A stretch of DNA of 64,000 nt from Lingula anatina (Eukaryota; Animalia; Brachiopoda): assembly GCA_051362555.1 (NCBI GenBank), contig CM120641.1, positions 1,488,001 to 1,552,000 of the forward strand. Direction: 5' to 3'. A program made the position numbers and the translations under genes. Under the pieces are notes generated by a model. That model did not search any database. It saw only the letters and a program-made list of their open reading frames with translations, and had not been told where the DNA came from. Position 1 is the first letter of the stretch. Every line of letters starts with the position of its first letter. Shown in pieces: positions 39,901 to 64,000 of this stretch.

Positions 39901-41685
39901 ACACAGATTTAACCAATAATATTATTGGAAAGTGTTACCCTTCAGGTCATCTTTCATCTCCGTGAATTTTGGGTCAATCGGTGCATTTTCACGAGAGTAG
40001 CGGCCATAAGATACCGAAACTGAAAACTGTCTGTAATTCGGGAACCGTTAATGCTAGAGACCCATTCTTTTTTGCATTTTGTAGAGCATGTAAAGCCCAA
40101 CACTGGAAGTGGTCTCTGTTTTTTTGTATTCCATACGGTTTTCGAGTTACGCTGTATCAAAAAGTACTTATTGGTGGTGAAAGCAAAATGTGCAATACGG
40201 TAATGATTAATAAATTTTGAACTCCAGAAAAATAAAACATAAGGCTTGGCAAAGCAGACAACTTGTGGTCAAAAATGACATTATTTCATCAAATATGAAC
40301 TTCTGGAACTTCAGAGCACCTCCCATTTCAAGAATTTTGACCAAAATGACCTTTTCTTTATTTTAATTAATTTTTTCTGTAGGAAATTTATGGCACATTA
40401 TGGTAACCCCAAAATTATAACATTTAGTCCCTTATATCTCCAAAACTGGCCGAGATAGGTCCATAGTTACTATTGAAGTTGAATAGGAAGTCATATACTG
40501 GCAATCTTACTGTGACCTTGAAATTGACTGTTGACCTACTTTTCACCATGAACTGAACTTTGCAAATTTTGCTTCCCTTTTATCTCCAAAACTGGCAGAG
40601 ATAGGTCTATAGTTACTATTGAACTTGAATGGGAAGTCATATACTGGCAATCTAAATGTGACCTTGAAATTGACCTTTGACCTACTTTTCACCATGAATT
40701 GAACTTTGCAAATTTTGCTTCCCTTTTATCTCCAAAACTGGCAGAGATAGGTCCATAGTTACTATTGAACTTAAATAGGGAGTCATATACTGGCAATCTA
40801 AATGTGACCTTGAAATTGACCTTTGACCTACTTTTCACCAGGAGTTGAACTTTGCAAATTTTGCTTCTCTTTTATCTCCAAAACTGACAGAGATAGGTCC
40901 ATAGTTACTATTGAACTTGAATAGGAAGTCATATACTGGCAATCTAAATGTGACCTTGAAATTGACCTTTGACCTACTTTTTATCATGAATTGAACTTTG
41001 CAAATTTTGGTTCCCTTTTATTTCCAAAACTAGCGAGATAGGTCCATAGTTACTATTGAACTTAAATAGGGAGTCATATACTGGCAATCTAAGTGTGACC
41101 TTGAAATTGACCTTTGACCTACTTATTATCATGAACTGAACTCTGCTAATTTCTTTCTCTTTTAACTCCAAACCTGGCAGAGATAGGTCCATAATTACCA
41201 TTGAACTTGAATAGGAAGTCATATACTGGCAATTTTCTGTGACCTTGAAATTGACCTTTGACCTACCTTACGATGAACTTAAATTTGATTGTACCATTTT
41301 TAGTTATATATATTTTTTGCATATTTTGAAAATTCTTGTTGATTGCATTTTTACATCTTGTCAAGCACAAGACTGGTGGCTATGTCCCTTATTTTGTGTA
41401 TGTGGGGGTCTATAGGAATGCGCTTGCTCCAGCTGGTGGTACAATATTCGGAGGCGGTATCGCCTCTCTGATCCTCTAGTTGTTATTGAAGGGTGAGTTC
41501 AAAATCACTTGATTTATCCCTCCTCTCTGAAATGGATTCATTTGCCCATAAGTCACATATTGAGCACATTTATCTTTTTAGATCAAGATACATCTGTGAT
41601 GCAACCAATGGACCCAAGACGTGGAGTTCAGCCTGTAGAGGAGGATGGACCTTGCTGTACGGTCACCAACAAGACCACTGTCTAA
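30923..41685 (+). CDS. Single-CRD TNF receptor-like protein C (BCMA/TACI-type CRD, TRAF-motif tail, C-terminal PDZ-binding-like motif)
   Basis: Exons 30923-31133 (signal peptide; CTWDTYRDKGTNRCEPCSNLCLPARGMMEECRRRC), 31706-31909 (acidic stalk, TM WATALVVVLVVLISGLISAAILY), 35756-35827 and 39309-39380 (72-nt phase-1 duplicates DQDTSVMQPMDPAGDQPEEEDRPC) and 41582-41685 (DQDTSVMQPMDPRRGVQPVEEDGPCCTVTNKTTV*). The start could alternatively be at 30896 or 30947. Confidence 0.8.
32030..35645 (+). mobile_element. Helentron-associated (HINE/DINE-1-like) element 1 with several internal tandem arrays
   Basis: 5' subTIR gtaccaccagc with an adjacent inverted repeat, 3' subTIR gctggtggtac (35596), 3' stem-loop gaggcggtattgcctc (35615-35630), and a tagtt end. 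Internal arrays of ~159 bp, ~317 bp and 146 bp. Confidence 0.75.
35903..39198 (+). mobile_element. HINE-like element 2 (chimera of the element 3 5' part and the element 1 3' part)
   Basis: Same subTIR and stem-loop layout. 35205-36817 is nearly identical to 38760-40370 (offset ~3553 bp). Confidence 0.75.
37215..38800 (+). repeat. 146-bp satellite array, ~11 copies
   Basis: The aaaactgg anchor recurs at 37231, 37377, 37523, 37667, 37813, 37959, 38105, 38251, 38397, 38543 and 38689. The unit contains tgaccttgaaattgacctttgacct. Confidence 0.95.
39456..41481 (+). mobile_element. HINE-like element 3 with ~6 copies of the 146-bp satellite (40425-41270)
   Basis: subTIRs gtaccaccagc / gctggtggtac, stem-loop gaggcg-gtat-cgcctc, and a ctagtt end. 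Confidence 0.75.
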
Positions 41686-41751: not shown

Positions 41752-41920
41752 CAGGGGCAGAGCCAGAGATATTTGCCGACCGTCTCTCAAAACCTCTTTG
41801 TTGATCCATTCTCCATTTTTGGCCATCTTCCGACAGAAAAAATTAGATATCTATCAATGTAAACTTGAAACTTGAAACTCTGACCCCCCCCCCCCCCCCT
41901 ATTTTTTTAGACACCCTCTT
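41752..41920. mobile_element. MITE-like repeat in the receptor C 3' UTR, same family as 50919-51084
   Basis: Shares tttgttgatccat...tcttccgacagaaaaa...taaacttgaaa with 50963-51035. Confidence 0.55.
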
Positions 41921-45224: not shown

Positions 45225-47703
45225 TCAGTGTGTCACAATCTCCTGCCTTGTATCATCAGGTGTGAAGAAACTTTCGACTCCAGAATCACATTTTTCTGGT
45301 TCTTGTCCTCTTCTTGGTGGTATAAGCTGCTTCACACTGCCTGAAAAACATTTGAATCCAATTAGTTTATAACTGATTACAAATATTGTAATGGTTTGCA
45401 AATGATGAATCAATACTTCTTAGAAAAATAATTTTCAAAATTATGGAACTGATTAATGCTTTTAAATTAAATATCAAATTCGTACAAGCATATTTATCTG
45501 TTAAAACAGCAAATGCATATAATTATTAATGGCAATGCAAGCTTTTTTTTTCTAAACTTTAAAATGACTTAAGCGTGCAAACTGCGTGATTTGTTAATTT
45601 CTCTTGCCTACCCTTAAAATAAATCTGCCAAGTGATGAAAGCAATTGTACTGGTATTAATCAAGTAATTTTCATGCATTTTTCTAAAAAAGCAATTTCAG
45701 CCAATTGTTTTGAAGCTGTTTCTATATTGACAGAAAAATTCATGGAATGAAAAAAAAATCCTTTATGAAAATGGTCTGGATGTTATGAAACCAGCAGCAG
45801 ACTGTTCTGGCCTCAGTTAGCAAAATGTTAGAAGATTAAGAATATAAATTCTACAGCCACAGGTAATTAAAACATACACAGAAACATGCAAGGGCAAAAA
45901 TGTATCGTAAATCCATTCCTTAACACATTTCATGAAACTCTGAATACAAAAATTTATCAAGCATACCATATTTAGAAACAAATAGATCAGGTCACGAACA
46001 GGACACACCTAAAACAATACCAAGTACTGCATTACATCAATGTAACTTTAAGAACTGATTCGGGAGTTTTCCAAAGTTTGTTCCAGATGGTGATAAATTA
46101 CCTCGATCAGGATGGTAACAGAGGACAATAAAAGTAAACTGTAAGCCATGTAAACTACATTACTGCAGTTCTTGATATGTGCTCGTACAGTGGATTTTAT
46201 TTTGGTACAACTAACACTAGCTCTGTTCCTTTCCACATGCATGAGCAGAATTGTGGTTTAGTATTGATCACCCTCACAAACATACAATTTCCTCATATGA
46301 GTGCATGCTATTTGTGGCAGTAGAATGTTAATTTTGTGAACAGAACAACATCACTATTCACACACAGTGCAAAGGTATAAACATAGAGCAATAAAATACA
46401 ACAGTGATATTATTTTCTAACACGAAAACTCACTGTGGATCCCAGTTTTCTTCACTTCTGATGCCAGTTCTTGCAGTTCTTCAATGATGGCAATAGCATC
46501 TGTTCTCCCTAGCTCTTTCAGGCATTGAGTAAGCTGGGAAATGGTTCCATCCAATACCTGAATAAATATATATAGTTGAAAGAGTTCTGTTTTGAGAAGA
46601 CCCACTCTTCACTAGTCGCATTAAATATATAGATTGAAATATTGAAAAGTGGTCTATAACCAAATTTTGTATAAAATTATGTGGAGTTTGTGGGAAATAA
46701 AAATATTTCAGACTAGTATACATGAAGTGACAGCATGAAATATCAAGACACAAATATGTCTCATTTACATACTAATGTGAAGATATATATACACAGGCTT
46801 ACAGCTTGAATGTATTGAATACAAACCTCATAGTTATCGAGAAGGGACAGAGTAGGACTTTTCTGTGGCCTGAATGTGCTGACCAGATGGCCCAGGTCCA
46901 GATATTTGGCCACTGCCTCCCAGTCTTGGTCAGTTTTACAGGGATCCAGCAGCTTGGCCAGGGAGACTCTGGACATGTAGTCTAGTTTATCAAGGTCACC
47001 TGGGAATAAAAATTAACTTTAAGCAACATATACACTTATTCATGCTACTGTGATAAAATTTTAATTTAACGAAACAAATAGGGGCAAAAATACAATATCA
47101 TGTTTTGAAAGAAATCATGGAAGCCACATAATGTGCTTTTTAAAATGCTGAAGTATGCTAAGTATAGGAAAGATAACTGAATATTTTCCTTCCCCCAATC
47201 CTAACATCATATACAAAACAAACCAAACCTGTTACAGATGAACTTCCCAGCCCTGAGTCCTGGGAAAGGGTGTATACTTTGCCCCCAGACTTGATGAGAT
47301 GTGCACTATGGTCCTCCACATCACGGAAGGTAGAATATGGTTCCCCATTCAGTATTTTTTGAATCTGTATTGAAGTGAGAAAGAGACAGTTGATAATTCA
47401 TTTTATGCATTTTAAAAATAGAAGTTTTAATCAGACTTTGCAGACATATAAGTAGAGAACAGAATAAGACCAAGAAAAAACAGAGGATCAGCAACTGACC
47501 AAATGGACAAAAATATTTTGTTATTTCTTTTTGAAAAGTCTTTTAAAAACAATATCCTTCCAAAATAAATAAATACCGGTAATAGTAACCTCATCAAAGG
47601 TATTATAAAATCAAATGAACAAAAATGTTTTGTAAAATATCTATAAACATGAAGTTATATATATCATCAGTATCTTAAAAAAAAAGAGAATATCCTTCCA
47701 AAA

Positions 47704-47734
<31 letters not shown>

Positions 47735-48171
47735 ACACCAGTTACCTTATCAAATGTAGTATAAAATCAATATACCTTGGCATTCCTCCAAGCTAAATCA
47801 AAGGCAGTGTGTCCTATGAGGTCCTCCTCTAGGTCATTATTCTTTTTCTCCTCCTCATCAACTCCATCTCCCTCATCATCTTTCTCTTCTTCCAACAACT
47901 CTGAGTTTTCAATATTCGGGTCAGCCCCGGCGGCCATGAGTAGAGCCACCATGCCTGTGCACTCACGACCGCAGGCAAGATGGAGGGCAGTGTTGCCGTC
48001 ATATGTGGTGGCATTGACATCTGCCCCAGCCTGGAAATTAAAACAAAATATAAATACTTTAGACTATTTACCTAATAAGTTTTTAAAAATATCTATGTGT
48101 ATATATGCGCAATTTACAATCCTCATACCTTCTTTTTGGTAAATTCTTATAAAAAATACACTAGGCTTATC

Positions 48172-48203
<32 letters not shown>

Positions 48204-51200
48204 TTAATAATAATAATAATAATGGGAAGTTAATGGTGCAACTGGGCGTGGCATACCTCCAGCAGCAAGCATCCCACCAGAGCCAAGTCTTCCTTCTCCA
48301 CGGCATGGTGGAGGGCCGTACGTCCACTCTTACCATCCTGGATATTGACGTCTGTCTGGACACGCAGAATAACTTTTAATGCCTGGAGAGAGCCACACAG
48401 GGCAGCCAGGTGCACAGGGGCAAACCCTGAAGGAAAAAAGGCCAGAATAGTGGACTATAAGTTGGAAATTTTCCGATTTTTAAATATACGGAGATGGAAG
48501 TACAGCATCAGATATTGGTTGACTTTCATCATAATGTGGAAATGCAATAAATCTATAAAGATTTCTCTTTAATTCCTTGCCGAACCCTTGCCTTCTAAGA
48601 ATCAAAATAAACAGGTTATACAAATATTAACTGTCAAAATTTCAAATTTATCAGAAGAAAATCACCTATATGTGGAAAGCATTTCACCCACACTACTGTT
48701 ATACTTTATTGCCTACCTTCATAGTTGTACATGGCAAGCTCTGGGAATGGATTACTAGGACTGGTGTTCAGTCTCATGTACTTCAGCAACACCTCCAGGC
48801 AGCCCTTGGACCCCAGCTCTGCAGCAAGATGAGTGGCAGTGTTACCATGGAGATCAACCATGTATGGGTCTGCCCCACTCTTCAGCAGGAGGTCCACTAC
48901 CAATGGCTGCTGTGTCAGAACTGCCAGGTGAAGGGGGGTCTAAACAAGAAATGAAGATGGGAAATTATCTGCCTAGGATCAGGATGGACTTCTTGTTTCT
49001 TTTCCCTTTTTTTTGTTCAGTTAAATAATGCATTATAAACACATATTTGATATTTCTCTTTAGCCTCAATCCATTTTCTTAAAATTTGAGTAAATTTTGT
49101 ATGTTTATGTGTGCCTTTAAGAAGTTAAATGCTGGCAAGCCTGGTAGTAACCTGGTCTATAAAACAACTCAGAGCTGTATGCCTTCAAACTTTACTGAAT
49201 AACACCTAACTAAATTCAAACTCACTCACCTGTCTTCTCTTGTTGAGTTGGTTGACAATGTTGGAGTTTGGAATAGTGACAGCCACACTAAGAAGATTCT
49301 TACAAGCTTCTACTCGTTTATGGATGACAGCAATGTGGACACAACTGGAGGATAAAGTATCATGGTTGATACCACAGACATCATTTATAAACAATTGTAA
49401 TTAATGTGCAAAATACTAACTAAAGAAAAAATTTAAGCACAAGTATCAAAGTGATCAAAACACCAAATCAAGTTATAAGTCATAATTTGTCTACAATTTA
49501 AAAGGGATGTAATATACTGCCATGTCTTAAAGTGTATACACTGATTAAAATTAAATCAAATCTTATTTCAATATTTTCAAAAGGCAACACCCTAAATGAA
49601 TTTTTTTCCTTAGTGATCATTGTACATCACTTACTTGTCCCCTGCTTCATCCTGAACTCCCACCAGGTGTCTCTGCACTGCAAGAAGAGCTTTTGTATCT
49701 CCAGTTGCAGCATAATCCTGCAGAGCCTCTGCAGTTCTTGCTGCCAGCCTCATCACCAAGTCATTGTTTTGTTGTGACAGAGAATCAGGCTGAGGCTCTG
49801 GGGCGGAGGTTCCTGGAAAGATTCAATAGTATATGTAAAATAAAATAATAACATCGGTAATATTTCAGTGTTGTATCTAATAAAATTATCTCAATAACTA
49901 CAAGTCATACACTGTCCAACTATTGGTTGTTCCTTACCTTAACAATATCTGTTTGTACTTAATTGTATAAGCAAAGGGTAAATGTAATTCTATAAATAGT
50001 TGTACACATCCATCAAGTCAATATTAAAATACATTTACTGAGGCAGCACACAAACATTTTAAGTGATTTCATATAATAATGAGTATCTGCTACCTTTTGT
50101 TGGAATGGGGACTTCATCCAGTCCCATCTGCTTGGTCTTTGAAGTAATATTTTCCATGTCAGATTTCCAGTTGTTTTCCTTCCCAACTGAGATGGTGCCT
50201 CGTGCAAGGAGTCCTTTCTGAGGGTATCCATAGTATGGCTGGTTTGAGGAGGAGTCATAAGGGGGACTGAACATGTTCATGTCATCAAAGTCTGGTGCTG
50301 AGTCTGTCACCAAGTCTTCACTGTCAGTGGGACCATAATGTGGAAAGGAGGGTGCTGCCATAGATCCCCCAATATTCTGCATTTTGATTGGGTGTTGATT
50401 TGCCCTTGACATGTTTCCATTGAGGTTGCTGATTGGCTGTGTGCTGAGTGATGGCTGCTGTACATATCCAGAGCCTTTCATCATTGGAGGATTCACAGGC
50501 CGGTTCACTCCTTGTGATGTGCCTAAGAATGTCATGGTTAAATCTGGTGTAAAAATTGCACTTTTAAGGGACAGTACAAAAGATTTTTGGTGCCTGAAAT
50601 TTGTCCTGTGCTTGAGTGATATGCTATTTTACATCCGATTACATCTCCCTGCTAAATCCTTTTTAAATTTTTAATCAAAGCGCAAGGAATACATTTAGGC
50701 AATCATTAAACCAAATATGGGCATTTTTAATTTACTGTTCCCACCTGCAAAATTGTAGGTGGCGCTCCCTCCTGCCCCAGTACCCCCAGCAGGGCCCACA
50801 AGTCCAGATCCTCCTCCACCACTGCCTCCGCTGCTGTAGCCACCTGAGCTGCCTCCAGAGCCACCTATTGAGTAAACAAGGTTATTTCTCATATCAATAC
50901 CTACTCTTTAGATAATGCAGGGACGGATCCAGATACATTTTCTGACAGTCTTCCAAATTATCTTTGTTGATCCATCCCCTATTTTGACCGTCTTCCGACA
51001 GAAAAAATAAGATACGCGTCAATATAAACTTGAAAATCTGACCGTCTTCCGGAAGACCCAGAAGACTGCCTTAATCCGCCCCAGCAATGGGTAAAACAGG
51101 AAGGATGTATTTCTTAAATATGATACAAAATGGCAACTTATGTTTACCAGAACTTTCTCGTACATTGGTATTTCTAATTATAGGTACTGGGGAAAATGAT

Positions 51201-54200
51201 AATATCAGTAAATATGACATCTTACCATAACGACTAAATGGGAATCCAACAGTTTTCTTTCTCTTCTTAGAGATCTCATCCATATCTAAAAGAAAAGACA
51301 CAAAGTCAGTAACATTTATATATTTGAAGAAGAAACATCCACATTCATTTTCATAAATGTCAGAGGTGAATCATAATGCACAGTAGTACTTAATTCTGCA
51401 TTGACAACAGGTACAGAACATGATTTACAGCGCAACTTCATTTAACAGTACACTTTCCAGTCATGTCTGATAACCCCATTTAAAGATAAATTTGTTGGAT
51501 GGAGCTAAATTTTGTAAAATCATCCATGTGATTTACTGAAACTTGCAAGCCCTGTACACCCCTCCTCAAATATCATAAAATTACAAACTTTAAGATTCTA
51601 TCATCTTAAAATACATATTAAAAAAACTAAAGGTACTCTAAATAAGTATATCAAACAAAGTCAACAGTTATTACATTCTATGTACTAAACATATTTCAAG
51701 CTTTTTTATTTGCAAGTTCCTTCTCTTAACATCAATATTACCAACATAAAATTCATGTCTGATAACTCCCTGTAATATTTTTCTTTGATTGAACGCATGC
51801 AGACACCAGTGACGGAACAATACACAAGACAGACCCACCCTCCAACTCTGGGTAATATGTCCAAGGTTTGGGGTCACTGGACTGCTTGTCTGAACGCCTC
51901 ACGAGCTCCATATAGACAACCTTTGGCCTCGTTATCTTCAAGTCATAATATGGCGGTGTTTTGAACACTATGGCATACTGAGAAAAAGATTGCACACAGT
52001 TTTCTTATGAATTTCCTCTACTTTTACTACATCTTGTTCATGACAAACTATCCAGAATGTTTATCTGAGTGATGGTTTGATGGCCTTTGTAGGAGTTAAA
52101 ATTCATTGAAAAATATCTCTTTTAGACCAAGCAGTTTTATATAATGACTACATGGACCAATAAAAAATGGTTTATAATTTAGCTACTTTTGTTACATTCA
52201 ACGACACCCATAATCTGTAACCATAGGAAAAAAAAAAATCCACCCTTCTCAGAACATCCTGGATAATTTGACATGTCTGATAAACAACAAATCATAACTA
52301 TTTCATACCAGCGACTTCTGGAAAGTACGTGAAAGGTTTGGGATCGCTAATAGCTCTGTCAGATCTTCGCATCAACTGCATGCGAACCACAACAGCCTTA
52401 GCAATGTTAACGTTCCAGTAAGGAGGTGTGCGGAACACAATGGCGTACTAGGGAAAATAAACACAGCCACTGCTATACAATCGCATTAGCATGCATGAAA
52501 TGTACCCATCACCAATAATAATTTTACATGTTTTCAAAGCTGGAATTTTACAGCTAAAAAGAATTTTGAACTCTTCAGTGATGAGTTAAATTCAAATGAA
52601 GTAAAAAAAAAATAATAATAATAATAAAATAACACACACCTCACAATTACCAAGCTAAGAAAATCATTTCAGTTATTGACAATAAAAAGTAAATAGCCAT
52701 GACATAAAAATACTGTGTAAATCAAAAGTTCCAAAATAAAAGATAAACACCTTCACTCAGACCCCAGGGTACCCAACTAAAAATCTTCCAGCTGTCTCAT
52801 TATTCTTAAGTTTATGCAAATATTCTATTCCATCATCATGTCAAGTGGATACAAAAATACTTAAATATTAATTGTAATATCTTTCATGCTAATATTTCAA
52901 AGAAAACAAATTTGAAGTCTGATGATATCTCATGCATACAGATATAGCAAGCTGACAGATTATCTCTGCTTATTACCTGGCGGTGTACATCTGGCGGTCC
53001 GAAGTTCCCATAAGCCTCCCATTTCAGTCTCCCATCTTCATCTTCCTCAAAGAAACGCACTGCTATATCATCTGAAATAATCATCACCTAATTTTCTTTG
53101 CTGGCATCTAAATTTATCATTCTTTTACTAAAATGCTATGTACAGTTTGTCTGTGAAAGATAAACTTAAGGCACAGCTCATGTTACTTGTAGGCATACAG
53201 ACGAGTCTATGAAAAAAAATTTACAAAAATAATCACTTTCTCATTCCACTATTATTTCCTGTGTAAGCACAGTAACGTTAATCTTATGAACTTAAAATAA
53301 AAAAGGGATTTGATAAAAAAATCAATACTTTCTTTTCCTTATGCTTGCGGCTGAAATAATGACATGTCTGTAATTTAATAGTTTAGTTCCTCTAAGCTGC
53401 TGACTTGTATTTTACATGAATTATATATTCTTTGGCATTTTCTATGACAGCGTGGTCCATGCAAAACTTATCCTTCTATAAAGACATTTAATAGATTCAG
53501 TGCTCCGTACCTCTGCACAAAACTCAACTACCATGAAGAGAATAAACATTCTAAATAAATATCTAACTTAGGTGTAGAGGTAGAAACACCTGGTCTATAA
53601 TTGTTAATTGCACACCTTTTTGTACTTTATCACAAAGTAAAAACACTTCATCGTTTCCTCTGACACTGCCTGCCTGGCGATCTAGACGGCAAATTTTCAG
53701 AGCTGCCGCCCCTGGGGCCTCTGAAAAAAATAAAATTATGTAAAGCTTCAGCATCAGGGAGTAGAAACGCTTTCAGCCACTCAATTCTAAGATTAACAAA
53801 GAAAAACACACTTGCCTTTATATCCTCTGGTGTGCTGACATTTCATGAACGGCAATCTCTACTTAACTACTTAGGTAGAAGTGAGAAACCAGAGATGACC
53901 TACTTTACTACCTGTCAAAGATCTTTACCAGAAAATACTATCTCAAGTTTCCGGAATATTGCAAGCAAAATATCATTTACAAATGACAGTATTGCAATGG
54001 ACACTAAGCAACAGCATATATCTATATTTATTTAATATCCAATTCAATGTCACACTTGTGACAGGCTCGCAATTTTTTACGATACACTTACTGCAGTCAT
54101 AAATTTGTTTTGAGATCACGGACGGCAGCATGCGACTGTATGTGCCATTTTCGTCCATGAGGTAAGCCTGGAAACACAGGCGCACAGTGCTGAGGTGCAT

Positions 54201-56328
54201 ACCCTTGGCTTGTTCCTCTGCCTGTTCCTTGGCCTGATTTTTCTCTTCCTCTGGTAATATCAAAGAAAACATGTAAGTGATAATAAGTATTTCACGTAGT
54301 GTAAAGATGCAACAAAAATGATTCAGATACCTCAAGGAAAGTCTACAACTGAAACAGCATTATAAATCATCATAAATTATAATATACTGAGTGGCAAAAG
54401 AGCCTTAAATGTTTTGTACATGTACAACATTTACCTGATAGGCCAGCATTTGGATTCCCTGTAACAAGAACATGATTCAGTCTGATGGACTCCTGAATTC
54501 TTTCAGACAAGACGTTCACCAGGTTCCTACGGGTGATATGCTGGACTCCCATATTTGGAAAGCTACAAATGGAAATACATAATTTTTGTCCTATGAAGAT
54601 TGTAATATTCGCCTGTTGCCATGGTCAATTAGACCCTCAGCGACTTATGATGCCAGTTTCAGCGTCCAATTTCTTGCTGCATCCCATTTTTCTTTGTGTG
54701 TTCATTCCTGTTTTTCTTTAATTGGTTTAGAAACATTGAATTGTTTGAAACTTGAAAATAACATTAATATATTTCATGTAATTATTACATCTTCTGTGAT
54801 TGACTTTTTAGGTTTTTAGAAATGTCCTGTAACATTTTGATATAAGGCTTACTATAAACTTGACATACAAGCACATAAATAAAAAAATCACTAAAATTAG
54901 ATCATGAAAAATTCAAAACCTTTTTCTTTCACAACACCATTGCTAATGATGGGAAATTTACATCCATTCCACATACTTGTGTCTGTTAACTTTATTTTGA
55001 AGTGCTATTATCTTCAACAACAAGCAATACAACATGGGAAAAGCAACAACTACAATGTTAACTTCAGTGTCATATAACCGTGCCCTACTAAACAAAGCTT
55101 AAGAACTTACGTTGCAGTGTTATTGGAACCACCTTTCAATTCCACCAAGCAAATACCGTTTTGGCAGTTCTTCCCAACCAACTCGTGGGCGTGAGTTTTT
55201 GGCACCTCTTCATCTGTTACCAGGGAAACGACAATCCTTGCCGCGCCAGTCCAGTTATTGATCTGCAAAGAAAGAATCAAACTGAACATTCTATGTAAGG
55301 ATTATCTTTGTGAAGGTGATTACAAGACAAAAGTGATATGTTGCTTCCAAAACTGATAAAAACCGTGATATGTGGGCTTCTTACAAGACTCCATCATGTT
55401 TTCTCTTCGAGTGTAATTGCAAATCTACTTCATCCCTAATACTTCTGAGCCATCTGGTTCATCTCAACAAAAGTATATGTGTAAAATGTATTTTTTCTAA
55501 AAAAAGAACTAAAAAGAAGTAAATCAGTGAATAAAAAGTGTGACATACTCTGACAGTGGGGTATGTTTTCTTTCCTTTCTCGCTATTCTCTCCTTGTAGT
55601 CCTCCATGTGATCCGCCCTCGCACTTGTAACGGAAACGAAATCCTCTAGACTGAGGCTCCTCTACGATTTCCAAATATGGCTCACCTCCAACTAAAGAAT
55701 GAAAAGATTACATAATTTAACACATTTGTTTTCATGACAGACAAAATCAAAATTTTATAAAGTAATTATCATCAATGTAATGTTTTTTAAATTCTCCCAA
55801 ACAATTGTTTGGTTGCACTGTTTTCTCTGTTTAAGGTGTGGAAAAAAAAAAGGAAAATAGAAAACTGGGGACCTGTGAGGGAGAAGAATAACACACAAAA
55901 AGTAATAGAAAAGATAAATCTATCTTTTTTTTTTGCATAATGGATAAGAGTAAGGGTCAAAGGAAGTCTTTTTTCAGACAAGGCAAGTAAAACCAATAAT
56001 CCCATAGGTAGAAGGTTTCAAAAGCTTTTCCAATTTTTAATAACCCAATAAGAAAATATATTTCTTTAATGAGTGGTTGAGACACAGTATGCCGCGAATT
56101 TTGTAATAGTACTAAACAACTGAAAAACTCACCCGTATTTGAACCAAATCCATTGATTACTGGTGTGACTTCCGCAGCCACTCCATTCATTGTGGTAGGA
56201 TACAGGTTATTATTACCATTCTGCTTGGGAACTGCCTCGCCTACCGCCATGGCAATGCGAACATCGTGGTCCTCTTCAGCGGAATAGTGCCCAGTAAGAT
56301 CCAAGGAGTCCTCGCTTTCGTCCACCAT
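45225..56328 (-). CDS. NFKB1: NF-kappaB p105/p100-like precursor (RHD, NLS, glycine-rich region, ankyrin repeats, death domain, DSGxxS degrons)
   Basis: Exons 56328-56133, 55691-55549 ([17 protein letters not shown]), 55262-55111, 54562-54435, 54250-54092, 53720-53616, 53071-52977, [52447-52309 or 51977-51839], 51285-51226 (KKRKK), 50864-50745 (GRR), 50522-50094, 49812-49635, 49344-49230, 48939-48717, 48426-48257, 48030-47776 (ankyrins), 47364-47229, 46999-46827, 46557-46434 (death domain) and 45340-45225 (DSGVES). Likely co-ortholog of vertebrate NFKB1/NFKB2. Confidence 0.95.
48174..48223. repeat. (TAA)n microsatellite
   Basis: Trinucleotide run inside an NF-kB intron. Confidence 0.9.
51839..51977 (-). 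CDS. NFKB1: NF-kB alternative IPT/dimerization exon, variant b (139 nt)
   Basis: cag|[46 protein letters not shown] g|gtgggt. Confidence 0.88.
52309..52447 (-). CDS. NFKB1: NF-kB alternative IPT/dimerization exon, variant a (139 nt)
   Basis: tag|[46 protein letters not shown] g|gtatga. Confidence 0.88.
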
Positions 56329-58699: not shown

Positions 58700-58915
58700 A
58701 ACTTACCTATTTTGCAACCTAGAAGTTTCTGTCAGATACTGACAATGTTTAATGGCGTAACACCCCGATGCCGCTGTACTGAGGACAGTATAAGTTTGGA
58801 TTTTCCATTAACAGTCCGTCAACATTGGGATTTCCAGATACTCGGGGATTTCCCGGCATATCATGATTGGCTGAGGGCTGTCACGTGATCACAATACGTA
58901 GTTTTGATTGGACGG
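58700..58915 (-). promoter_or_regulatory. NF-kB promoter and non-coding first exon, with clustered kB sites
   Basis: Minus-strand donor AG|GTAAGT at ~58706. kB-like sites TGGATTTTCC (~58798), TGGGATTTCC (~58826) and GGGGATTTCCC (~58843). Two CCAAT boxes (gattgg at 58865 and 58906) flank TCACGTGA. The ATG exon begins with an acceptor at 56331. Confidence 0.7.
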
Positions 58916-60380: not shown

Positions 60381-60632
60381 CACACGATTCTGACAAGTCT
60401 CATAACTCATTAAAAAATTCTAAATATTTTCCCATCAAAACTCTGCTCCATTGTGTATTCCTCAATCTCACTGTCACCGACTGTGTTGAATGCTTCAATG
60501 TACAAATAATCCTTTTCCTGAATGGGAAATTAAGGGGGTACACAAGAAATTGTGCACCTCTCACATTCATGGCATAATCTGTATCTGTTTCTGACATTTC
60601 AATATCAATACAACTGAAGTCTGCATTCACAA

Positions 60633-63772
<3,140 letters not shown>

Positions 63773-64000
63773 CTGAAGCAGAAAAATGAAGTATTTGGAA
63801 ATAGGCTTTATTTTGCCTTGTTAATGATAAAATCTGATATAAAGCTTTTAAGAAAAATCTCTAGCAAGGTTTTGAGGTACTCAGTGCTGTCATTAAATTG
63901 CATTAAAACAGTGTTTGTGGGTGCTCAGGTACAGGAGAAGTTTGAGAATAAGATTTTGCATTTTTTTACCACAAAATCACAATTATGACATCATCGGTAA

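What the first reader, a model, noticed from the sequence alone, without database searches (positions are those of the whole stretch)
51839..52447. NF-kB with two apparently mutually exclusive exons in its dimerization domain
Seen: two tandem paralogous exons, both exactly 139 nt, both phase 0 to phase 1, both open and with canonical splice sites. They share 27 of 46 amino acids, and many differences are conservative. Including both or neither shifts the frame. Established: this segment is the C-terminal half of the IPT/dimerization domain, just before the NLS, and corresponds to p50 FAIVFKTPKY...RRKSD...FLYYP, part of the region used for dimerization and IkB binding. Inference: an old exon duplication kept under selection lets one gene make two p50/p52-like subunits with different partner, inhibitor or phosphorylation properties, much as vertebrates did by duplicating the gene. 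I am not aware of this being described for NF-kB, but I could not search.
Basis: partly seen in the sequence, partly recalled or inferred. Interest (0 to 1): 0.88.

Follow-up and report, generated by a model that had tools for sequence, protein, structure and literature searches.

The report
NF-kB with two swappable exons
The NF-kB immune gene of the lamp shell Lingula makes two protein versions by splicing in one or the other of two duplicated exons, which likely changes the protein's outer surface rather than how it pairs, and both versions already sit unremarked in automated gene annotations.

Summary
Real. The gene is the p105/p100-type NF-kB of the brachiopod Lingula anatina. Exons A (52447-52309) and B (51977-51839) are both 139 nt, 27/46 aa identical, with saturated silent sites. 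RNA reads from 4 runs show all four one-or-other joints (169 reads) and list no A+B or skip-both joint. Exon A makes up 6-10% of joint reads in two runs and 56-60% in two others, but those two come from a diverged Lingula, so regulation is not shown. RefSeq already predicts both isoforms (XP_013405334.1, XP_013405335.1), which lowers novelty. Seven literature searches found no description; the main Lingula immunity paper was not readable. The 139-nt exon is ancestral, but no second copy was found in 80 loci of other animals or 20 protein clusters. New here: a 23-bp predicted RNA stem inside the A-B intron (0 of 2000 shuffles), and a 12-mer repeated after both exons. The dimer-contact residues are identical in A and B, so partner choice is an unlikely purpose. 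The differences lie elsewhere, some at IkB-contact positions, without significant enrichment.

The parts
45228..56328 (-). Coding span of the p105/p100-type NF-kB gene (RHD, glycine-rich region, ankyrin repeats, death domain)
   Evidence: tblastn of RefSeq XP_013405334/5 covers residues 1-1071 across this span; Pfam domains
52977..53071 (-). Constitutive exon U upstream of the pair (95 nt)
   Evidence: RNA joints; splice sites
52309..52447 (-). Mutually exclusive exon A, 139 nt (RefSeq isoforms X1, X3)
   Evidence: 55 joint reads over 4 runs; P0006 and P0045 carry it
51839..51977 (-). Mutually exclusive exon B, 139 nt (RefSeq isoform X2); Trp at position 39 where 196 of 196 other segments have Phe
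   Evidence: 114 joint reads over 4 runs; P0046; column counts
51226..51285 (-). Constitutive exon D with the basic NLS-like KKRKK stretch (60 nt)
   Evidence: RNA joints; translation
52253..52275 (-). 5' arm of a predicted RNA stem in the A-B intron (+34 to +56 after A's donor)
   Evidence: 22 of 23 pairs including 2 G-U
52039..52061 (-). 3' arm of the predicted stem (ends 61 nt before B's acceptor)
52272..52283 (-). 12-mer TTATCAGACATG, copy 1 (26 nt after exon A; overlaps the stem's 5' arm by 4 nt)
51754..51765 (-). 12-mer copy 2 (74 nt after exon B)
51462..51473 (-). 12-mer copy 3 (B-D intron); the three are the only exact copies in the 64 kb
   Evidence: 0 of 2000 simulated intron sets hold a 12-mer three times
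52490..52495 (-). TGCATG 48 nt before exon A; further copies 40 nt after U (52936) and 37 nt after B (51801). Rbfox-type motif (label recalled)
   Evidence: 3 of the 8 intronic copies of the gene lie in the three introns around the pair; not significant alone

Best explanation
The Lingula NF-kB p105/p100 gene carries two copies of an ancestral 139-nt exon and splices in one or the other, giving two full-length proteins that share their dimer contacts and likely differ in the outer surface that meets IkB/ankyrin partners. Shown: both exons are open, both are spliced to the same neighbours, neither A+B nor skip-both is listed among the RNA joints, and the dimer-contact positions in the exon are identical. 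Inferred: the duplication probably arose on the brachiopod line, and both copies are kept by purifying selection. Inferred: A-to-B joining is hindered by a long stem that folds most of the A-B intron, bringing A's donor close to B's branch region, with nonsense-mediated decay clearing any frameshifted A+B or skip-both RNA. Untested: the choice is probably regulated, with the TGCATG motifs and the repeated 12-mer as candidate elements, and B's Trp39, Pro18, Tyr22, Glu24 and Glu46 may alter inhibitor or co-factor binding.
For: Four joints, 169 reads from 129 start sites, none for A+B or skip. RefSeq X1/X2 differ only in this segment. pS 0.81 against pN 0.30. Both exons keep the 7 columns invariant in the first 97 homologous segments that they share (A2, I3, V4, T7, P8, L25, R27) plus Y41 and P43. 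Both are spliced in the diverged study-P3 animals, where 3 of 5 listed changes in A and 2 of 2 in B are silent. Exon peptides are identical between the window and RefSeq although about 7 residues differ elsewhere (my reading of the alignments). Ancestral exon: 67 of 68 genomic loci from other animals have AG, 139 nt, GT, and 0 of 80 loci hold a second copy. No alternative version in 20 clusters with 84 segment-bearing members from molluscs, amphioxus, echinoderms and two unnamed clusters. A and B share V20, found in 2 of 196 others. Stem: best of 19 introns of the gene; 0 of 2000 shuffles; -33.0 kcal/mol, best of 8515 window pairs, next -23.6; 21 of 23 pairs at probability 0.8-1.0.
Against: The A share differs between runs (0.06, 0.10, 0.60, 0.56; Fisher p about 3e-10 on start sites), but tissue is unknown and the A-rich runs are from a diverged Lingula, so genotype could explain it. 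Differences are not enriched at IkB-contact positions: 10 of 22 against 9 of 24 elsewhere, p 0.77, and most contact lists come from docking models. With the core stem alone about 63 nt remain between A's donor and the one branch-like site (TTCAT at -34). That is above the <50 nt steric limit of PMC5740500, unless the weaker outer helix (+12 to -47) also forms. No competing docking partner was found for either arm or for the 12-mer, so what would open the stem is unknown. Absence of A+B reads in steady-state RNA is expected from decay alone. Five of 193 tiles of the window reach the stem score. The tree does not resolve A+B as a clade (18% of bootstrap trees; one clade not rejected, p-AU 0.40). 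Position 42 of A is F in the window but Y, as in B, in the P3 animals. No other brachiopod or phoronid genome was examined.
Confidence: 0.55

Rival explanations
1. The two exons are functionally near-equivalent. Both are kept intact because both are used, exclusivity comes mainly from decay of frameshifted RNA, and the ratio reflects genotype rather than regulation. The stem may be a leftover inverted repeat such as a small transposon.
For: No enrichment of differences at any mapped interface; similar Pfam scores for the two isoforms, 126.9 and 124.1 bits; ratio differences track study and sequence divergence. 60% of human MXE clusters have lengths not divisible by three (PMC5740500, section 7). 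The stem arms are bounded by CATG on both sides, as a target-site duplication could be.
Against: Nineteen amino-acid differences include W39 at a column that is F in 196 of 196 others. No second copy of the stem arms elsewhere in the 64 kb, and both transition mismatches in the stem are G-U compatible. The 12-mer persists after both exons although silent sites are saturated.
Confidence: 0.3
2. One reading: the exons give p50-like and p52-like subunits with different dimer partners.
For: The exon supplies part of the dimerization domain, including F307 and V310 (PMC3098379 passage). Buried changes such as F39W might alter the interface indirectly.
Against: 0 of 3 interface positions in the exon differ. 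The other interface residues named in PMC4477481 (R252, D254, E265, C270, D271, D302, H304, R305) lie in upstream constitutive exons. Neither exon groups with vertebrate p100 or p105.
Confidence: 0.1
3. One exon is a decaying spare that is only leakily spliced.
For: A is only 6-10% of joints in X1 and X4, where no U->A joint is listed. A has 2 amino-acid changes in the P3 animals against none listed in B (the variant table was cut short by 64 rows).
Against: A is the majority form in X7 and X8, is intact in the window, RefSeq and P3, and scores slightly higher than B against Pfam.
Confidence: 0.05

Closest known systems
Class I NF-kB precursors (vertebrate p105/NFKB1 and p100/NFKB2; mollusc NF-kB/Relish)
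   Same: RHD DNA-binding and dimerization domains, glycine-rich region, ankyrin repeats, death domain; the same 139-nt exon with the same boundaries; best solved-structure matches are p50.
   Different: Two alternative copies of this exon in one gene. None was found in 80 loci or 20 clusters from other animals.
Tandem-duplicated mutually exclusive exons in transcription factors (Drosophila serpent exon 4.1/4.2, PMC4691838; human TCF3 and CUX1 clusters, PMC5740500; MEF2 and FOXP1 recalled)
   Same: Paralogous exons for the same part of a folded domain, length not divisible by three, one included at a time.
   Different: serpent uses competing upstream and downstream pairings. Here only one strong pairing, inside the intervening intron, was found, with no competing partner. 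No Rel-family case turned up in the searches.
RefSeq XP_013405334.1 (X1) and XP_013405335.1 (X2), Lingula anatina
   Same: These are this gene's A and B isoforms, identical over both exon peptides.
   Different: Machine predictions without comment; they say nothing on exclusivity, ratio, age or the intronic elements.

Membership tests
Class I NF-kB (p105/p100/Relish type) | Rel homology DNA-binding plus dimerization domain | tested here: met
   PF00554 E 4e-57; PF16179 E 4e-37 (A) and 3e-36 (B)
Class I NF-kB (p105/p100/Relish type) | C-terminal ankyrin repeats and death domain after an NLS and glycine-rich region | tested here: met
   Ank and Death hits; KKRKK and glycine-rich stretch in the sequence
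Class I NF-kB (p105/p100/Relish type) | Processing to a p50/p52-like subunit that binds kB DNA | not testable with these tools
   needs protein work
Tandem-duplicated mutually exclusive exons | Neighbouring paralogous exons of like length and phase coding the same part of a domain | tested here: met
   139 nt each, 27/46 aa, Pfam positions 59-102 for both
Tandem-duplicated mutually exclusive exons | Each exon joined to the same upstream and downstream exons in RNA | tested here: met
   four joints, 169 reads; U->A seen in 2 of 4 runs, the other three joints in 4 of 4
Tandem-duplicated mutually exclusive exons | No joint inclusion and no skipping in mature RNA | tested here: met
   neither joint listed at a threshold of 3 reads in 4 of 4 runs; short reads and steady-state RNA only
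Exclusivity by short intron or U2/U12 incompatibility | Donor-to-branch distance under 50 nt in linear sequence, or mixed intron types | tested here: not met
   A-B intron is 331 nt; all three introns GT-AG with donors GTAATA, GTATGA, GTGGGT; a distant branch point was not mapped
Exclusivity by competing docking-selector pairings (Dscam, serpent) | One docking site that pairs alternatively with selectors of each exon | tested here: inconclusive
   a shared 12-mer follows both exons, but no partner beat shuffled queries (5 of 40 and 26 of 40 as good); one strong stem, no competitor; no conservation data
Regulated (tissue- or stimulus-specific) splice switch | Ratio changes between tissues or conditions in one genotype | tested here: inconclusive
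   ratio 0.06-0.60 across 4 runs, confounded with study and sequence divergence

The most novel reading that the evidence does not exclude
A regulated splice switch inside the NF-kB dimerization domain, the first for the Rel family: an intronic RNA stem and repeated intronic motifs pick between two exons that keep the dimer core but present different surfaces to IkB/ankyrin proteins, so one brachiopod gene yields two differently inhibited NF-kB subunits by tissue or immune state.
Probability: 0.3. Interest if true: 0.7.

Novelty: new variant of a known kind. Interest (0 to 1): 0.42.

Why it matters
NF-kB families are usually diversified by gene duplication or by truncating splice forms (recalled). 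Here one gene swaps half of a folded domain instead. The pair is a natural experiment: the dimer core is held constant while 19 other positions vary, including a Phe-to-Trp change at a column invariant in 196 other sequences. That makes it a direct test of which surface residues set IkB/ankyrin specificity. The compact 1.85-kb cassette with one dominant predicted stem suits a minigene test of how exclusivity is enforced. The importance is limited: it appears lineage-restricted, the animal is not an experimental model, and the isoforms are already machine-annotated.

Tried and rejected
No whole genome is held for this window, so genome-wide copy numbers of the stem arms and the 12-mer are unknown. 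No RNA holder was listed by the word index; the runs came by species label. Only 4 of the 9 listed runs have read counts, so variation within studies P1 and P2 is open. A homolog search with exon B alone gave 3 distant hits among 4 candidates. A profile of A+B against 1.84 billion representatives showed two matched stretches in 1 of the best 150 hits, P0063, which is a whole-domain tandem repeat in a snail protein and not an exon pair. The older gene model P0047 joins A to a cryptic acceptor inside B and fuses the upstream gene; no such joint is listed in the reads, so it was rejected as a prediction artefact. A single-sequence fold of the B isoform was uninformative (mean pLDDT 35). No complex prediction was run, since both isoforms would pass by likeness to solved p50 structures. 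The search for a docking partner of the 12-mer was negative. Rfam over 50800-53700 gave one chance-level hit (E 0.71). Enrichment of differences at IkB contacts was negative. The 46-column tree had no starred branch. Three look-ups of earlier findings were empty. One member of the Mytilus cluster (P0183) differs in its last 8 residues, which looks like a mis-spliced model rather than a paralogous exon.

Full report
Observation. The two exons are as described. On the minus strand, exon A (52447-52309) and exon B (51977-51839) are each 139 nt, preceded by AG and followed by GT. They translate without a stop to 46 residues, 27 identical. Nucleotide identity is 81 of 139, with pS 0.81 and pN 0.30 by a Nei-Gojobori count, so silent sites are saturated while the protein is conserved. 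Either exon alone keeps the frame between exon U (53071-52977) and exon D (51285-51226). Both together meet a stop at 51945; neither meets a stop at 50507. Both stops lie far upstream of many later junctions, the usual trigger for nonsense-mediated decay (recalled).

Identity. The first RHD exon matched Lingula anatina NF-kB p105 at 98%. That cluster has 4 members: RefSeq X1 (1071 aa, exon A), X2 (1071 aa, exon B), X3 (exon A, shorter C-terminus) and an older fused model. X1 and X2 differ only in this segment. The RefSeq proteins align over the whole gene, 56328 to 45228, with about 7 substitutions by my reading and none in A or B, so the window appears to be another haplotype or assembly. Pfam finds RHD DNA-binding, RHD dimerization, ankyrin and death domains in both isoforms.

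RNA evidence. Nine runs with the same species label were listed. Four were laid, reading about 6% of X1 and X4 and 25-26% of X7 and X8. Reads per joint in X1/X4/X7/X8 were U->A 0/0/13/10, A->D 4/2/16/10, U->B 35/13/8/10 and B->D 26/5/11/6: 169 reads from 129 start sites. No A->B or U->D joint was listed at the threshold of 3 reads. Exon A's share was 0.06, 0.10, 0.60 and 0.56 (Fisher p about 3e-10 on starts, X1+X4 against X7+X8). X7 and X8 (study P3) carry many fixed differences from the window, mostly silent. In A, 3 of 5 listed changes are silent and two are not (I15V, F42Y); in B, 2 of 2 are silent (the table omitted 64 rows). Both exons are therefore used in two diverged Lingula lineages. 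The ratio difference cannot be assigned to tissue or treatment, because these are not given and genotype is confounded. The other five runs have no counts.

Age and spread. The exon itself is ancestral. Among 80 loci from host DNA in metagenome assemblies (best 80 of 115), 68 had an intron or no visible exon directly upstream, and 67 of these 68 showed AG, 139 nt, GT. None of the 80 held a second copy. Forty-four of the 68 had at least 600 nt on both sides, against 470 nt start-to-start in Lingula. These loci are 52 distinct segments, many closely related, and include Rel-type paralogues. In 20 protein clusters from molluscs, amphioxus, echinoderms and two unnamed sources (84 members bearing the segment; at most 15 listed per cluster) no paralogous alternative version appeared. 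A and B share V20, seen in 2 of 196 other segments, and no other segment carries more than 2 of their 4 shared rare residues. The 46-column tree puts A and B together with a long-branch insect Relish, weakly; one clade is neither shown nor rejected (p-AU 0.40). A duplication on the brachiopod line is the simplest reading. No other named brachiopod or phoronid was in hand.

How exclusivity may be enforced. The A-B intron is 331 nt and all three introns are GT-AG, so the short-intron and U2/U12 routes listed in PMC5740500 (section 7 read) do not apply directly. The A-B intron holds an inverted repeat, 52275-52253 with 52061-52039, with 22 of 23 pairs including two G-U. It is the best stem among 19 introns of this gene (some intron ends approximate, and the B-D intron also beat its 25 shuffles at a lower score). 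None of 2000 dinucleotide shuffles reached it, though 5 of 193 tiles of the window did. It is the strongest of 8515 window-to-window duplexes in the three introns (-33.0 against -23.6 kcal/mol), with 21 of 23 pairs at probability 0.8-1.0 in a 1.3-kb context. The whole intron folds at z -2.2. The stem starts 33 nt after A's donor and ends 61 nt before B's acceptor; the one branch-like site is at -34. The core stem leaves about 63 nt, above the 50-nt steric limit. A weaker outer helix present in both the MFE and centroid structures (+12 to -47) would cut this to about 27 nt. I take hindered A-to-B joining with decay as back-up as the likeliest mechanism, but decay alone would also give the observed absence. 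Unlike serpent (PMC4691838, abstract and passages), no competing pairing was found.

Candidate choice elements. TTATCAGACATG occurs three times in the 64 kb, all in sense orientation: 26 nt after A, 74 nt after B, and deeper in the B-D intron. None of 2000 simulated sequences held a 12-mer three times. No pairing partner beat shuffled queries, so a protein-binding site, on RNA or on DNA, is more likely than a selector; its reverse strand contains TGATAA, a GATA-like site (recalled). TGCATG lies 40 nt after U, 48 nt before A and 37 nt after B. By the recalled Rbfox position rule this would favour B where that factor is present. With 8 copies in 10,151 intronic nt this is only a lead.

What changes in the protein. 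The segment aligns without gaps to p50, and the primer in PMC3098379 (passage) fixes mouse F307 as position 1. F307 and V310, whose mutation contributes to a non-dimerizing p50 in that paper, and A308 (recalled) are the same in A and B. The other interface residues in PMC4477481 (passages) fall in upstream constitutive exons. Partner choice is therefore an unlikely purpose. Several p50 positions listed as IkB contacts differ (K323, P324, Y348, I351, K352, K312, F345; PMC4477481 and PMC3009747, passages; mostly simulation or docking), but 10 of 22 against 9 of 24 elsewhere is no enrichment. B's W39 stands where 196 of 196 other segments have F. Both exons keep the serine of the RRS motif. Any functional difference is untested.

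Literature. Searches for a description (combinations of mutually exclusive exons, NF-kB, Relish, mollusc, brachiopod, Lingula, isoform) listed no paper whose title or abstract start concerns this; I saw these as listings only. PMC9835746 (passages) cites Gerdol et al. 2018 on Lingula immunity, which is not held; it or its supplements may mention the isoforms. PMC11802352 (passages) added nothing specific. Earlier findings of this scan were empty.

Verdict. A real, expressed, mutually exclusive exon pair in a brachiopod NF-kB. It is an ordinary splicing mechanism in a family where I found no other case, already present in automated annotation, with a testable RNA stem and no shown function. Interest 0.42.

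Noticed in passing
window 58845-58854: Palindromic kB-type site GGGAAATCCC, with a similar GGAAATCCC about 20 nt on, just upstream of what looks like the gene's non-coding first exon; suggests NF-kB autoregulation (motif recalled). Five such matches per strand in the window.
   Followed up: no
window about 60630-64000, minus strand: 3' part of an upstream gene resembling poly(ADP-ribose) glycohydrolase (label recalled from its [11 protein letters not shown] motif); the older model P0047 fuses it to NF-kB.
   Followed up: partly
window 50918-51082: Small repeat element in the D-G intron with very high RNA coverage from reads that run on elsewhere; a 79% copy lies at 41752-41870.
   Followed up: partly
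runs X7, X8 (study P3) on window 50600-53800: Many fixed, mostly silent differences from the window in coding exons; a diverged population or cryptic species under the same species label.
   Followed up: partly
window about 46430: RefSeq isoform X3 ends in VSCS after the death domain instead of using the last exon at 45338-45228.
   Followed up: no
P0063 (Batillaria attramentaria): Predicted protein with two tandem NF-kB-type dimerization domains and a PF00791 domain but no Rel DNA-binding domain listed.
   Followed up: no
window 40400-41270 and 62100-63000: Two intronic or intergenic tandem arrays, one with a unit of roughly 100-120 nt and one built of self-complementary CCTATAGG units.
   Followed up: no
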